NCBI GenBank assembly: GCA_965660855.1
Contig: CBFIBM010000007.1
Location: 28,569 to 92,568 of the forward strand
DNA from: an uncultured bacterium
GTDB lineage: Bacteria > Fidelibacterota > Marinisomatia > Marinisomatales > UBA1611
Direction: 5' to 3'
Length of the DNA stretch: 64,000 nucleotides
Part shown: positions 45,001 through 57,000 of the stretch, one piece after another
Numbering within the stretch: the stretch's first letter is position 1
How the letters are laid out: the number at the start of each line of letters is the position of its first letter
Position numbers: made by a program

Positions 45001-48000
45001 GTATTCTTTTTTCGAGAATGATGAATCTTTCCTTTATAATACATCAGAAGAAGGTTGGGTTGAATATAGAATTCCTCTTCAAGAATCAGGTTCTACTGGT
45101 GGTGGAACATCTTATACCCTTGGTTTTACAAAAACTGGATGGGTAGGTATTAGTGGTAATGATACTTTTGATGTTAATAGCATAGGTGGCATATCTATTG
45201 AAATTGTTAGTACTGTAAGCGGTGAAACCGTTAGTGGAGAATTTTTAATTGAAGATATCCAGGCGATAGCTGCAACAGATATATATGGTTGTACAGATGT
45301 AAACGCTTGTAATTACAATCCAGAAGCAACAGTTGATGATGGAAGTTGCTATGAGTGTTCAGATATTACTTTTAGAGTGGATATGGCTTTAATAGATGCT
45401 GATCCTGACCAAGAGATTCACCCTGAAGGTGTTTATCTCGCAGGAGGTGACTTTGGGCAAGAGGGCTATTTGATGGATGATGCTGATGGTGACAATATTT
45501 GGGAATATACTTTACCTTTGAAAGTTGGTGATACATTTATGTATAAATTTCGTAATACACCTTCTTACGGAACATGGGACGGGTTTGAGCCTGATGCAGG
45601 CTTAGCTTCAGGTGGTTGTGGAATGGGAACTTATAATGATAGGTTCGTAGTAGTTCCGGATACCGACACAGTATTAGATGCAGTTTGTTACGGATCTTGT
45701 GTTAGTTGCGAGCAAGCAAGCTTTGTAAATGTCACTTTCTCTGTGAATATGCAAGAGGAAGATACCAGTCCTGAAGGTGTCTGGTTAGCTGGTGGTAATT
45801 ATGGAGGCAATCCAGGTTTTTTAATGAATGATTCCGATGGTGATGACATATGGACTCTTACAAGACCAGTAACACCAGAGAGCAATATTACGTACAAATT
45901 TGTAAATGGACCGATTGATGCAAATTGGGGCGGTGCTTGGGAAGAAGTCCCTTTAGATTGTGCGGTTGGTGATTTTGACGATAGAGAATTCAACGTTGGT
46001 TCTGTAGATGTTGAAGTGCCTTTAGTTTGCTTTGGTAGCTGTATGGATTGCCTTGGTGAATATACAGTTGACATCACATTTAATGTTGATATGAATGATG
46101 TGGCTGGTTTTGACGGTTCAGAACAACCTTACATTTTTGGTTCATTTAATAATTGGGATAATTTTTCAACTCAAACAATGTTATCTGACAATGACGGTGA
46201 TAATATTTATACGGGTACTATTTTAGATTTCATTTCAACAGACTCTGTTACTGTTCTATTTGGTTTTGGTCAGACAGTAGAATCTGTTCCATCTGAATGT
46301 GGAATTCTAGACTCTGATCTAGGTATGAACGTAAGAGAATTACCCATTATGGATTCAGAAGGAGATTCTGTTTTAGTTCTTGATCCTGTTTCTTTTGGAA
46401 ATTGTCCTTTAGATAATTCTCCAAGAGTCTTTTTTCAAGTAGACGTATCTAGTGTAATTGATCAATGGCCAGCAGATTTCAGTTTATGCGCTGTGGGTAG
46501 TTTTGCTGGATGGAATGCATGTGGACTTCAATTGACTGACGAAGATGGTGATAATATTTATACTGGACTACTTACAGATTTAGAAGATGGTGTCTCTTAT
46601 GAATATAAATTTCTAGTAAATGAAGGTTGGGGTGATCCAAATACTGAATCAGGTGCTCCTCTTGCATCAGATTGTGATTTTGATCCTAGTGATGAATTTA
46701 ATAATTATGGTTTTGTTGCAAGTGAAGGTTTAGCACCTCTAGACTTAGGTGTTCACCCATGGAATGAATGCCCTCAATTATTGAGTACTGATGATTCTGG
46801 ATATTTAGTTCCAAATAACTTCACTTATATGGCATATCCAAATCCATTCAACCCAACAATCAATATTGATTATGCATTACCAAATCAAGAATTGGTAAAC
46901 TTAAGCATAATCAACTTACTAGGGCAGAAGGTAAAAACCTTGGTTAACGATATTCAAGAGCCAGGTAATTACTCTTTTAAATGGGATGGTAAAGACCTTA
47001 ACGGTGTAAATCTTCAGTCTGGAATTTACTTTGCTGTTATAAGTCGCAATTCAGGACAAAACATTGTTAAGATTACATATCTAAAATAAGCGTAATTTGC
47101 AAAGGTAGAGGTTGTAAACCTCTACCTTTGCTACTATAAGATTTTATATAAAATAATAAATGATAATTAAATTAGTTAAAGCTTTTGCTATAATCCTTTT
47201 TTCATTGAGTCTCCATGGGCAAACCTCTGGAAAGATATCAGGAAGAATAATTGAAAAAGAAACTGGTGAGCCCTTGGTTGGCGCTAATGTTATTATTACT
47301 CAAACACAGGCTGGAACTAGCGCAGATGAAGAAGGTTATTTTAATTTAATTAATGTAAGTCCTGGAAAATACTCCGTACGAGTAATGATGATTGGGTATG
47401 AGTCTATTACGATTGAAAATGTAGTGGTCTCTGTTAACAGAACGACTTCATTAGATGTAGAAATGAAGATGGGTGTAATAGAGAGTAAAGAGGTTATTAT
47501 TTATGCAAGTAAATTGAGTAGGAAAAAAGATCAAACCAGTACAGTTAAAAACATTTCTTCCGAAGAAATAGATATATTACCGGTCGAAGATATCGGGGCG
47601 GTTGTCAATATGCAAGCAGGCGTGGTTGCAGGAAGCTTTAGAGGCGGAAGAAATAACGAAGTGAGTTATATGATAGATGGTGTACCTGTAAATGATGCTT
47701 TTGGCGGAGTATCCGCAGTATCAACCTTGGAAGTTGAAGCAGTAAAAGATCTAGAGGTAATAACCGGTACATTTAATGCTGAATACGGGAATGCAATGAG
47801 TGGTGTGGTTAATGCAGTTACCAAAGATGGGAATAATAATTTTGAAGGTAGTCTTAATACAAATTACTCTACCTACATAACAAATAATAAAAGAAATGGT
47901 GAAGAGCTTTTTATAGGATTAGACCCATTTGGTATTAACTCAAATATTGATAATCGTTTTAATATAAGTGGTCCAGTTATCAAGGATAAAGTTTATTTCT

Positions 48001-54000: not shown

Positions 54001-57000
54001 TTCTCAGTAACAGGAATGAGAAAAGACGCCATGAAGATAGGAATGAGTATTTCTAATTATGGTTCAAAATTAAGATATGATGGTATAGACTTGATTAATC
54101 CAATAGATATCTTAGAAAATGAAAATGGGAACTACGAAAATGTAATAGGCCAGTTTAGAACTGAGTCGTGGGAACTTCCATTAATCTTTAGATTAGGGAC
54201 ATCAGTAAAGCCAATTGTGAATGAAATCCATTCACTTATTGTTTCGTTTGATGTACTTCATCCAAATAATAATAGTGAGTCATTGAACCTTGGGACAGAG
54301 TATTCAATGAAAATTATAGGTGGTAATAAGTTCTTTTTGAGAGCTGGTATTAAAAGCATTGGTATTGCCCAGTCAAATGATACACGTGAAATCTTTGGTA
54401 CAGAAATTCCATTTTCCTCAATTACCTATGGTTTAGGATATGAAAGAAATATTATAAATAATAAGAGTTTAGGTATTGATTATTCTTATCAGTCTATAGG
54501 TCTTTTAGGCGATGTTTCTCTTCTTACTTTTAGATTTCAACTTTTTTAATATATAAACAATATGAACAAGGTTAATTGTTCTTTATTCATATTTTTTTTT
54601 CTACTTCTCTCCGGTTGTGAAAACAAAAAAGAAATTCGAATTGTTCAAGATAAAAACCTCTTAGTTAAGGTAGCTCATAAATCAATTATGGTTAATGATT
54701 TTATTAAAAGATGTGAATATGTTCCAAGACCACCGTATTGCAGGGGTGATAATTATATTCATAAAAAAATAGCATTAAATTCTTTAATTGCAGAAAAATT
54801 TTTAGCTCTGGAGTTTGAAAAAAAAGATTTAAAATTAAATGATACACATAAATCATTAATTGAAGGGCAGCAGGAGCAGGTTATGCGACAACTGATGCTT
54901 AAGTCTTTCGGTTATGATTCAGTGAAATTAGATAACGAAATTATAAAAAACTTAGTAGAATTAGATAAGCGAACATATGATATTAAATTTGTTGTTCTGA
55001 ATAAGAATTATGATGATATAATTGATAAATTTTCACAAGAAACTAGCCTCAGATCTTTAGTTCAAAAAGTCGGCATAAGTAGAGATATTCAAGGTAGAAA
55101 AGTTTCAAAAAATGAAACAATGCTTGATGAAGTAAAACAAATTCTTTTCAATGGGGAACCGATGAAAAATATTGTTTATGGTCCTTTTGAGGTAAATGGG
55201 GATCAAATTTTATATTTTGAAATTGACACGTGGATTAACTCTGTTGATGTTACAGAAAAAGAAAAAATAGAAAGATGGAAAACTATCCAAAAAGAATATG
55301 AAGAAGTTGAAGCACTAAACTACTACAGTAAATATGTTAAGAGGTTAATGAGAGGAAAAAAAATTGATTATAACCCAAATGTTTTTCAATTTTTTTCTGA
55401 TAAACTCAGAGAAATATATTTAATTGAAAAAGAAAAAAAAGAAACAGTCATTAATAAAAAAATATGGAATATTGATGAAAATATAGAGTTCACTTCTTTT
55501 GATGAAATTAAAAATATGGGTAATAGAATTATCTTTTCACATGATACCAAGGATTATAAAATAAAAGATTTGTTAAATATGATTAAAAAACATCCCTTGG
55601 TTTTTAGAAATAAAAAAACAAATAAAGATTTATTTTCAAATGAACTCAAATATGCTATTGCAGATTTAATAAGAGACTACCATATAACAAAAAAAGCTTA
55701 TGAATTGAATTTTCATAAAAAAATCAATATTACAAATGTTAAAGATAAATGGGAAGATCATATAAAATCTACTCTCTATAAAACAAAATTTTATGATTCT
55801 GAATCTTTTAACACTTTATCATCAAAAATTGATTCACTCCAATTGATTTATTCTGATATGGTAAAAATAGATACTGATAAATTTGAAAAAATAAAGTTAT
55901 CTTCAATAGATATGAATGTAAACTACTCTAATCAAGCATATTCAAAAATTGAACCGGGTTTTCCAATTTTAACGGATGATCACTTATTAGATTATGGTAA
56001 AAAAGTAACTTTTAATGATTAAAATTATTCTTTACTTTTATTTTTTATTTCTTATTAGTTGTCATGATTCAACTGGAAATAATAAAGCAGAAGACATTTA
56101 TGGATGCATGGACTCTGATGCATCAAATTATAATATTAATGCAACAGCATCAAATGATAGTTGTATTTATACAGGTTGTACAGATTCTGAAGCTACAAAT
56201 TATAATCCATTTGCAACAATAGATGATGGTAATTGTTTATCCGAGGATCAAATACCTGATGGATTCAATTACTATTGGAACGATGAGTTTAATAGCGATA
56301 CTCTTAATGGAAAATTTTGGAATATTGAAAATTGGTGGTCTGGCGCATATAATAATGAATTACAATCCTACACAAGTGATGAAAGTAATATAACCCTTCA
56401 AAACGGATATTTATATATCCGAGCACAAAAAGAAATTCCTTTCAATCCAAACCAACCAGGATATACATCAGGGCGAATAAATACAAAAAATAAAGTTGAA
56501 CTAAAATACGGATATTGGGAGATTAGAGCAAAACTCCCATCTGGTAATGGAACATGGCCAGCAATATGGATGTTAAATTCCATTATTGATTCAATACCTT
56601 GGCCCTATTCTGGAGAAATAGATATTATGGAACATGTGGGATATGATCCTAGCAGAGTTTATTTTAGTATGCATAATGAAAATTTATACGGGAATGTTCA
56701 TGGAACGGACCAACAAGGTGTTTATTACCTTGAGAACATAGAAAATGATTTTCATATATATTCTATTGAATGGGACGAGTTCATGATAAAAGGTTATGTA
56801 GATGGTATTCAAATTTTTGACAAATCTAGAGAAAGCAGCTATAGTGATTGGCCATATGACAGTCCATTTTTCCTTATTTTAAATTTAGCAATAGGAGGAG
56901 ACTGGGGTGGAGTTCAAGGCGTTGATAATTCTATATTTCCTTCTTCATTTATAATTGATTATGCTAGAATGTATAGAAAATAATAATTAAAAAAATATGG

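What a model noticed while it worked through the whole genome (the two positions that open the first line are those of the whole stretch)
47160..56022. TonB receptor - T9SS-sorted ~1200-aa surface protein - private PorV barrel: a SusD-free polysaccharide uptake module
Glycan loci of this genome (beta-glucan here; alpha-glucan at C6:32403-40782; partial copies on C9, C54, C63, C30, C32, C47) have no SusD beside the receptor but a fixed triad: TonB-dependent receptor, a 1100-1300 aa unannotated protein ending in a T9SS-type C-terminal signal, and its own PorV-family barrel. The triad is phylum-wide; the big protein is proposed to dock on its cognate PorV and act as the SusD-like partner.
Evidence so far: PorV_fam over cutoff, big proteins match no Pfam/NCBIfam family; paralogues share the C-terminal signal (142); homologues in 25 of 30 phylum genomes (126); receptor upstream and PorV downstream in 16 of 16 loci, one with a PPIase between (142); GH16, GH5, GH3 or GH13, GH97, CBM20 neighbours (30, 33); Atlas clusters unannotated, also Ignavibacteriota (216); no paper found (124, 141).
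(Added by a program. Inside this text positions count along the whole contig: contig position 28,569 is position 1 of the stretch shown here. "Call 12" and the like, gene names such as g00115 and contig names such as C1 are that model's own, and its searches are not shown. The text may have been shortened before it was handed on; [...] marks where a part breaks off. The agent that wrote the report below was given it as the finding of a first reader that could run no searches.)

Follow-up and report, generated by a model that had tools for sequence, protein, structure and literature searches.

The report
SusD-free, T9SS-tethered uptake module
In marine SAR406 bacteria and related lineages, many outer-membrane nutrient importers are encoded with an unstudied secreted protein and a dedicated small barrel that probably grips its tail, which looks like an undescribed alternative to the SusC/SusD sugar-capture pair of Bacteroides.

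Summary
The gene module is real; its function is inferred. A TonB-dependent receptor, a 1162-aa family-less protein and a PorV/PorQ-family barrel are tightly coupled in a beta-glucan locus. A PrsA/SurA-like lipoprotein follows as a fourth gene.

Picking loci by the barrel alone in five relatives, 45 of 67 barrels have receptor plus tailed protein just upstream; those genomes show no SusD match. The big protein models as a carbohydrate-enzyme-type beta-supersandwich (Z 18.3) plus Fn3-like and beta domains. It ends in a PorZ/PorU-like tail (GKFAVIK), unlike ordinary T9SS tails. A tail-barrel complex scored 0.89 against 0.00 for the best control, possibly by likeness to solved PorV-tail structures. 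Binding to receptor or glycan is untested.

Ten literature searches found no description. The scan reported this module before on other DNA (13 notes).

The parts
47160..49982 (+). TonB-dependent receptor, 940 aa (N-terminal CarboxypepD_reg extension, plug, barrel, C-terminal Phe); not SusC family
   Evidence: PF13715 67 bits, PF07715 43, PF00593 54, all over cut-off; TIGR04056 37 bits against cut-off 368
49988..53476 (+). Large partner protein, 1162 aa, Sec-type signal peptide without lipobox, no curated family
   Evidence: 2642 representatives at E<=0.001, 364 at 1e-30; AlphaFold2 model pLDDT 88.5
50063..51703 (+). N-terminal beta-supersandwich (fold of GH15/GH65/GH94/GH116 N-domains and aldose epimerases) with an acidic D-x-D-x-D-G insertion, inferred to bind calcium
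   Evidence: VIA Z 18.3, rmsd 3.2, 250 aligned to 9ju0; Z 16.8 to GH94 6ggy; conserved Asp/Gly motifs. Boundaries approximate
51710..52198 (+). Fn3-like domain, shared by long and short partners
   Evidence: Weak profile hit to 3mpc, E 0.08; Foldseek Fn3 hits; hhalign probability 100 between long and short partners over mature residues 490-683
52199..53089 (+). Two variable beta domains of the long subfamily, without a clear fold match
   Evidence: Model pLDDT 90.6; best VIA Z 8.2, rmsd 3.1, 96 aligned (FlgL), marginal
53090..53473 (+). T9SS-type C-terminal domain of PorZ/PorU type (VVPNPY ... GKFAVIK), a subtype distinct from ordinary type A tails of this genome
   Evidence: Profile hits PorZ 5m11 (E 1.8e-4) and PorU 6za2 (E 8e-4) only here; VIA to 5m11 Z 12.6, rmsd 2.0, 94 aligned; six own-genome partners score 62-143 bits, all other tails <=44
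53473..54549 (+). PorV/PorQ-family barrel, 358 aa, distinct from the housekeeping PorV (C1:316849-318240)
   Evidence: NF033709 197 bits (cut-off 90); PorQ 86 (220), PorV 78 (250); 6h3i_F E 3e-19 by profile; tree; complex with the tail
54562..56022 (+). PrsA/SurA-like foldase lipoprotein, 486 aa, fourth conserved gene of this subfamily
   Evidence: Invariant Cys19; PrsA 4wo7 E 6.6e-6; SurA_N_2 in 26 of 46 homologues; directly after the barrel in 51 of 67 loci with a barrel
44549..47089 (+). 846-aa secreted protein with CBM20/48-like repeats and an ordinary type A tail; candidate surface glycan-binding protein
   Evidence: a type-A-tailed gene is directly upstream of the receptor in 57 of 60 loci with sequence
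42827..44470 (+). Sodium:solute symporter (inner-membrane step)
   Evidence: PF00474 305 bits
41690..42694 (-). LacI-family regulator
   Evidence: PF13377, PF00532
39670..41697 (-). GH3 glycosidase
   Evidence: PF00933, PF01915
56015..56983 (+). GH16 protein, lipoprotein-type N-terminus
   Evidence: PF00722 81 bits
56997..58067 (+). GH16 beta-glucanase with type A tail
   Evidence: PF00722, PF18962; NF047856 141 bits, under cut-off
58068..60053 (-). GH5 + CBM6 with type A tail
   Evidence: PF00150, PF03422, PF18962

Best explanation
An outer-membrane uptake unit that uses T9SS parts instead of a lipid anchor. (1) Shown by sequence: receptor, partner and barrel are encoded, duplicated and diverged together. 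(2) Inferred, well supported: the partner crosses the inner membrane by Sec and the outer membrane through SprA, is collected by the module's own PorV/PorQ-type barrel, keeps its PorZ-like tail and stays bound to that barrel at the surface. (3) Inferred, untested: the tethered partner sits against the receptor, and its beta-supersandwich and variable domains capture or funnel substrate into it, the job SusD does. (4) In this copy the substrate is beta-glucan (laminarin-type) oligosaccharide cut by GH16/GH5, trimmed by GH3 and imported by the SSS transporter; other paralogues serve other glycans and probably non-glycan solutes. The PrsA-like lipoprotein helps fold one of the components. My odds: step 2 about 0.8, step 3 about 0.55-0.6.
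For: Linkage 71 of 72 and 66 of 69. Barrel-picked loci: 45 of 67, plus 5 rearranged copies; 48 of 55 tailed partners lie directly behind a receptor. About 53 of 124 plug-bearing receptors in five genomes belong to such units (two labelling methods, approximate). SusD_RagB in 0 of these 5 genomes and 8 of 41 phylum genomes, one match each; none among 162 of 270 neighbours or 76 representatives of 111 unlabelled neighbours scanned. The three genes diverge together (Mantel rho 0.62-0.73, 0 of 2000 permutations, 47 triads). Module barrels lie on one side of a branch (support 91) apart from housekeeping PorV. The tail matches the uncleaved PorZ/PorU tails. Complex score 0.89, best control 0.00; mark reached by 116 of 157 solved and 2 of 215 mismatched pairs; runs agree in >=88% of contacts, partner pLDDT >=74; the interface includes the conserved VVPNPY and GKFAVIK strands. 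SprA in 41 of 41 genomes; two PorU and three TonB here. The N-domain fold is carbohydrate-associated. CAZyme neighbours vary by paralogue: GH13, GH18, GH20, GH38, GH43, GH51, GH53, GH88, GH94, GH106, PL11.
Against: No test of receptor-partner or glycan binding. The complex pass may be recalled from solved PorV-CTD structures, used my own alignments, and does not test cognate against non-cognate barrels. Co-divergence is expected from gene linkage alone. Only 6 of 14 triad regions in two closed genomes have a glycoside hydrolase match. In 5 rearranged loci the partner lies three genes upstream and the receptor abuts the barrel. Some barrels are shared between two partners. The motor of the secretion system is unconfirmed: GldK only 78 bits against cut-off 350, GldL/M/N not searched. 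The barrel branch is not starred (91). No CBM or lectin match for the variable domains.
Confidence: 0.55

Rival explanations
1. The partner is barrel-tethered but structural: a calcium-stabilised cap, scaffold or assembly factor that folds, shields or positions the receptor and nearby surface enzymes, without binding substrate itself.
For: One family serves loci for glycans, peptides and nucleosides. Residues conserved across 46 paralogues are mostly Gly, Pro, Trp, Tyr and Asp. Acidic repeats. A foldase gene travels with the module. Gorasia 2022 (PMC9143113, Discussion) speculates on a protective cap role for PG1035 on PorP.
Against: Partners diverge with their receptors and differ in domain content (653-1313 aa), as substrate-specific parts would. 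The N-domain fold is carbohydrate-associated.
Confidence: 0.2
2. The partner is a surface enzyme (new epimerase, lyase or hydrolase family) that processes substrate at the mouth of the receptor.
For: Supersandwich folds include catalytic ones: GH174 fucanase Z 13.3, aldose epimerases Z 13.2, lyase domains. R230 (80 of 80), E313 and several Asp (mature numbering) are near-invariant in the long subfamily.
Against: The best matches are to the N-domains of enzymes whose catalytic (alpha/alpha)6 barrel (recalled) is absent from the nearly helix-free model. R230 and E313 do not reach 70% conservation across long and short paralogues. One chemistry would not fit so many substrates.
Confidence: 0.12
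3. The barrel is only a specific shuttle: the partner is secreted, then released or sortase-linked like ordinary cargo, and works away from the receptor as an adhesin or glycan binder.
For: PorV is a transient shuttle (PMC5562754 passages; PMC10994853 passages). Two PorU sortases are present. Cognate shuttles target cargo to different destinations (PMC12618676 abstract).
Against: The tail resembles the uncleaved PorZ/PorU tails and differs from more than 50 ordinary tails in the same genome. Near-constant position directly behind a receptor (48 of 55) is not explained.
Confidence: 0.1
4. The barrel is a FadL-like solute channel and the tail is a generic Ig domain of a periplasmic protein; T9SS is not involved.
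For: Weak FadL (E 0.017) and FlgD hits; the tail is below the TIGR04183 cut-off.
Against: PorV_fam in 80 of 80 barrels; structural match to the PorZ tail; complex model; SprA in 41 of 41 genomes.
Confidence: 0.03

Closest known systems
SusC/SusD (RagA/RagB) core of Bacteroidota polysaccharide utilisation loci
   Same: Receptor followed directly by a dedicated surface partner; many paralogues per genome; flanked by CAZymes, a LacI regulator and an inner-membrane transporter.
   Different: Receptor far below the SusC cut-off; partner has no lipobox, is all-beta (SusD is a helical lipoprotein, recalled), carries a T9SS tail and comes with a third gene, the barrel.
PorZ-PorQ and PorU-PorV pairs of the T9SS attachment complex (Porphyromonas gingivalis)
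   Same: PorV/PorQ-family barrel holding a surface protein whose tail is not removed (PMC5562754, PMC11285876 passages); the tail here matches PorZ and PorU tails in sequence and fold.
   Different: Those are single-copy housekeeping parts of the secretion machine. Here the pair is multiplied (median 8 tail matches per genome), tied to TonB receptors, and the passenger is a supersandwich, not beta-propellers or a gingipain-like sortase.
Type B CTD cargo with cognate PorP/SprF shuttles (Flavobacterium johnsoniae SprB-SprF; PG1035-PorP)
   Same: Barrel gene directly downstream of its cargo, cognate pairing, anchoring through the barrel (PMC9143113 Discussion; PMC12618676 abstract and passages).
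   Different: Barrel is PorV/PorQ family, not PorP/SprF; the tail hits the type B model in only 3 of 80 members, weakly; 'TonB' does not occur in the main text of PMC12618676.
N-terminal beta-supersandwich of GH15/GH65/GH94/GH116 enzymes; aldose 1-epimerases
   Same: Fold of the partner's first ~550 residues (Z up to 18.3, 8-12% identity).
   Different: No helical catalytic barrel; large acidic insertion; followed by Fn3-like domains and a secretion tail.

Membership tests
SusC/SusD PUL core | Receptor of the SusC/RagA family (TIGR04056 over cut-off) | tested here: not met
   37 bits against 368
SusC/SusD PUL core | Adjacent SusD/RagB-family gene | tested here: not met
   No SusD family on the partner or the lipoprotein; none in the neighbours scanned
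SusC/SusD PUL core | Partner is a lipoprotein with a helical fold | tested here: not met
   No lipobox-like motif in 45 of 45 paralogues; model almost all beta
SusC/SusD PUL core | Co-located CAZymes, regulator and inner-membrane transporter | tested here: met
   GH16 x2, GH5, GH3, LacI, SSS; GH16/5/3 in 56 of 79 homologous loci
SusC/SusD PUL core | Partner caps the receptor and binds substrate | not testable with these tools
   Receptor plus partner N-domain exceeds the 1000-residue limit of the complex tool; no binding assay
PorV/PorQ family | NF033709 over cut-off | tested here: met
   197 against 90 bits; matched by 80 of 80 homologues
PorV or PorQ proper (equivalogs) | NF033710 or NF033711 over cut-off | tested here: not met
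   78 against 250 and 86 against 220; a separate housekeeping clade exists
T9SS type A cargo | TIGR04183 over cut-off | tested here: not met
   12.8 bits on the whole protein, 17.9 on the tail alone, cut-off 23
T9SS cargo (any CTD) | Signal peptide plus C-terminal Ig-like CTD fold | tested here: met
   N-terminal sequence (judged by eye, no predictor); Z 12.6, rmsd 2.0, 94 aligned to PorZ 5m11
T9SS cargo (any CTD) | Host encodes the translocon and attachment parts | tested here: met
   SprA over cut-off, two PorU, PorZ-like gene at 168 bits, under cut-off
T9SS cargo (any CTD) | Host encodes the GldKLMN/PorKLMN motor and ring | tested here: inconclusive
   GldK 78 against 350 bits; others not searched; genome 84% complete
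PorZ-PorQ type pair | Tail retained and bound stably to the barrel | tested here: inconclusive
   Model supports binding, 0.89 against 0.00; retention needs proteomics
Type B CTD-PorP/SprF pair | TIGR04131 tail | tested here: not met
   3 of 80 tails, best E 0.006
Type B CTD-PorP/SprF pair | PorP/SprF-family barrel (PF11751) | tested here: inconclusive
   No hit on this barrel or in the genome, but no control genome rang either
Type B CTD-PorP/SprF pair | Barrel gene directly downstream of cargo | tested here: met
   66 of 69; 38 of 67 direct in barrel-picked loci
GH15/GH65/GH94 enzymes | N-terminal beta-supersandwich | tested here: met
   Z 16.8-18.3
GH15/GH65/GH94 enzymes | Helical catalytic barrel domain | tested here: not met
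   Model has only scattered short helices; no Pfam GH hit

The most novel reading that the evidence does not exclude
A second, T9SS-built way of making a capped TonB importer: a new family of non-lipidated surface partners with their own tail subtype is held by a private PorV-like barrel against the receptor and replaces SusD. It accounts for roughly two in five TonB receptors of Marinisomatota and recurs in Ignavibacteria, Calditrichota and KSB1. Because it spans these deep lineages it may be an old function of the T9SS, nutrient capture, independent of gliding.
Probability: 0.45. Interest if true: 0.85.

Novelty: new variant of a known kind. Interest (0 to 1): 0.72.

Why it matters
PUL finders key on SusC/SusD pairs, so loci like this are missed. 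The triad gives a marker for reading substrate use in SAR406 and related uncultured lineages: paralogues sit beside enzymes for beta-glucan, starch, chitin, pectin, galactan and arabinan. For T9SS biology it implies a third class of tail with cognate PorV-family carriers, beyond 'type A uses PorV, type B uses PorP/SprF', and a direct link between T9SS and TonB transport. It is testable in cultured Ignavibacteria, Caldithrix or Fidelibacter if they carry it.

Tried and rejected
Sequence search of the big protein against PDB chains gave one chance hit (E 1). Whole-length Foldseek gave only diffuse Fn3/Ig, PorU and PorZ matches with TM-scores under 0.1. The two variable domains folded alone gave no Foldseek match at E<=0.001 and a marginal best Z of 8.2; this neither shows a new fold nor excludes a CBM. 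The ESM Atlas returned 30 unannotated clusters at 0.98-0.99 and no named family. Promoter and terminator scans equalled shuffled background (97 against 97.6; 8 against 7.6).

RNA runs: contigs from four RNA libraries cover the locus, and one 8,663-nt contig spans 45944-54604. These are contigs, no DNA run or silent stretch was laid, and three of the runs may be one campaign, so I take no expression level or operon end from them.

The count correlation between barrels and tails (rho 0.86, 41 genomes) was set aside because both follow genome size (0.82, 0.74) and kin are not independent. In three streamlined genomes the best barrel was the housekeeping one, with no triad in those 20-kb regions; their single tail matches were not inspected. 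I looked for a contig-end overlap joining C30 to C32 or C32 to C50 and found none. A receptor-partner complex was not modelled because of the size limit.

Literature: ten searches found no description of the module; most subscription papers are not in the library and I read no supplements. Kadnikov 2013 (PMC3534657, passages) calls Melioribacter roseus Mros0761-0759 'SusC, SusD and SusE'; I could not check whether these are true Sus genes or this triad.

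
Full report
Observation. The window carries, on the + strand, a 940-aa TonB-dependent receptor (47160-49982), a 1162-aa protein (49988-53476), a 358-aa barrel (53473-54549) and a 486-aa lipoprotein (54562-56022), separated by 5 nt, a 4-nt overlap and 12 nt. 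The receptor has the N-terminal extension, plug and barrel families over cut-off but is far from SusC (37 against 368 bits). The big protein matches no Pfam family. The barrel is PorV/PorQ family (197 against 90 bits) but neither PorV nor PorQ proper. Around them lie GH3, LacI, an SSS transporter, a type-A-tailed protein with CBM-like repeats, two GH16 and a GH5-CBM6, which points to beta-glucan. Close homologues come from records titled Marinimicrobia/Fidelibacterota.

Conservation, picked by the big protein. Of 158 confirmed matches in GTDB genomes the tool kept 79 loci. The receptor is directly upstream in 71 of 72 loci with sequence there, and the barrel directly downstream in 66 of 69. 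The three misses are a split gene (L005), a two-gene insertion before the barrel (L050) and a locus where my ORF filter kept an antisense frame, not re-checked (L027). The lipoprotein occurs in 57 of 79 loci and GH16/5/3 genes in 56 of 79. The lipoprotein is a PrsA/SurA-like foldase (PrsA 4wo7 E 6.6e-6; SurA_N_2 in 26 of 46 members). Record titles include Calditrichota, KSB1 and Ignavibacteriales.

Conservation, picked by the barrel. Of 67 barrels, 38 have a tailed partner and then a receptor directly upstream, and 45 within one extra gene. Five more, one per genome, sit in a rearranged locus with the partner three genes before the receptor; one is cut by a contig end and one follows a triad barrel. 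Fifteen have no such context, among them one housekeeping PorV per genome and barrels near sprA. Of 55 tailed partners, 48 lie directly behind a receptor. Of 55 receptors in these regions, 48 are followed by a partner and 5 by a barrel; the five genomes hold 124 plug matches in all, so roughly two in five receptors belong to the module (approximate, two labelling methods). SusD_RagB matched 0 of these 5 genomes and 8 of 41 phylum genomes, once each. The tail profile matched 41 of 41 phylum genomes (1-19 matches, median 8), 10-25 times in five genomes of other lineages and 17 of 21 genomes of the class of an Ignavibacteriales record. SprA is in 41 of 41.

Limits of the 'fixed triad'. Partners fall in two sizes, 653-788 aa (25) and 1068-1313 aa (20); the short ones are homologous over the end of the N-domain, the Fn3-like domain and the tail. 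L100 has two partners before one barrel; L113, L127 and L141 have two receptor-partner pairs around one barrel. In the two closed genomes only 6 of 14 triad regions have a glycoside hydrolase match; others lie by M3, M24 or S8 peptidases, ADP-ribosylglycohydrolases with PfkB, or nothing informative. Among 71 neighbours that I chose from the remaining 179, CAZymes for starch, chitin, pectin, galactan, arabinan and beta-glucans appear. In the own genome, C30, C32 and C50 match the rearranged variant, and a SusC/SusD-like pair exists at C6:11848-16386.

The big protein. AlphaFold2 with 77 sequences gave mean pLDDT 88.5 and an almost all-beta chain. Mature residues 9-555 align with the beta-supersandwich of GH15, GH94, GH65 and GH116 enzymes and of aldose epimerases (best Z 18.3, rmsd 3.2, 250 residues, 9% identity), with an acidic D-x-D-x-D-G insertion (calcium binding inferred). 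An Fn3-like domain and two variable beta domains without a clear match follow. There is no lipobox-like motif in 45 of 45 paralogues. The last 120 residues match PorZ (E 1.8e-4; both end in FAVI-K/R) and PorU (E 8e-4) by profile, and PorZ by structure (Z 12.6, rmsd 2.0, 94 residues). In the own genome six partners score 62-143 bits on the tail profile and all ordinary tails at most 44; five of the six end in GKF-x-x-I-K/R, whereas ordinary tails end like KKMLLLK. PorZ and PorU tails are not removed on secretion (PMC11285876, passages), and the two proteins are anchored by PorQ and PorV (PMC5562754, passages).

The barrel. Module barrels (56 rows) lie on one side of a branch with support 91 in a quick tree, apart from six housekeeping PorV (100) (unstarred, midpoint root). 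Receptor, tail and barrel distances correlate across 47 triads (rho 0.73, 0.70, 0.62; 0 of 2000 permutations), as expected for units duplicated whole; this does not prove contact. A model of tail plus barrel scored 0.89 against 0.00 for the best of three controls; that mark was reached by 116 of 157 solved complexes and 2 of 215 mismatched pairs; runs agree in at least 88% of contacts and partner pLDDT is at least 74. The interface uses the family's most conserved tail strands. Because PorV-tail structures are solved (PMC10994853, passages), the pass may reflect likeness; it does not test specificity, and the counts hold only roughly for my own alignments.

Mechanism. Most likely the partner is exported through SprA, picked up by its own barrel, keeps its tail and is held at the surface beside the receptor, where it captures or funnels substrate as SusD does (0.55). 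Tethering is well supported by inference; contact with the receptor and substrate binding are inferred from gene order, co-divergence and fold alone. Rivals are a structural cap or assembly factor (0.2), a surface enzyme (0.12), a released cargo with a private shuttle (0.1) and a non-T9SS reading (0.03). The secretion motor is unconfirmed (GldK below cut-off).

Comparison and novelty. It works like a SusC/SusD core but fails membership on receptor family, partner family, fold and anchor. Its anchoring resembles PorZ-PorQ and the cognate type B tail-PorP/SprF pairs (PMC9143113 abstract and Discussion; PMC12618676 abstract and passages), but uses PorV/PorQ-family barrels and a different tail. 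I also read part 1 of 4 of PMC10947112 and passages of PMC3534657, PMC5317091 and bioRxiv 2024.11.17.624012; none of what I saw describes the module. Ten searches found no description; unread supplements or subscription papers could. The scan's own notes report the same module 13 times on other genomes; they are not independent support. Verdict: a real, widespread, apparently undescribed variant of TonB uptake loci built from T9SS parts; interest 0.72.

Noticed in passing
G000 C6:11848-16386 (L094): A SusC-like receptor (1065 aa) followed by a SusD-like lipoprotein (PF07980 24 bits, just over cut-off): the only such match in this genome; 8 of 41 phylum genomes have one.
   Followed up: partly
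G000 C30, C32, C50; L107, L115, L121, L139, L153: Rearranged module (partner, type A cargo, ~500-aa lipoprotein, receptor, barrel, further gene) present once in each of five relatives and forming its own barrel clade; may be a housekeeping copy. The barrels on C32 and C50 have near-identical N-termini.
   Followed up: partly
G000 C2:154474-157551 and C29:2390-6097: Two PorU sortase genes over cut-off, both ending in the same unusual tail (…IGRCAKY).
   Followed up: no
G000 C5:33846-34493: Best GldK match is only 78 bits (cut-off 350) although SprA is in 41 of 41 genomes; the phylum may run T9SS with a divergent or different motor.
   Followed up: partly
G022, G030, G038 (L162-L164): Genomes of about 1 Mb keep SprA and two PorV-like matches with few tailed proteins; the housekeeping PorV sits beside a TRAP-like transporter and glyA-like gene, as in G000 C1.
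   Followed up: partly
G000 C23:167-7095 (L089): A PorV-family barrel fused to a TPR-rich region (945 aa) directly behind a 1364-aa tailed protein.
   Followed up: no
L105, L126, L132, L145, L160; G000 C9: A partner subfamily with an extended C-terminus (…ERLD-x-Y/F; …QVVQYY in C9) whose barrels form a separate clade (support 100).
   Followed up: no
window 39670-41697: The GH3 carries an inserted pair of EF-hand motifs (PF13499 over cut-off) that is absent from the ~606-aa GH3 of related loci by length.
   Followed up: no
window 31279-39658: Two large secreted-type proteins upstream: CotH kinase with LTD domains and a type-A-like tail (1189 aa), and a PGA_cap/PKD protein ending in a dockerin-like domain (1583 aa).
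   Followed up: no
G000 C63 and C54: One partner paralogue carries PKD-like repeats and a weak CBM5/12 match, the only curated domains seen in the body of a partner in this genome.
   Followed up: no
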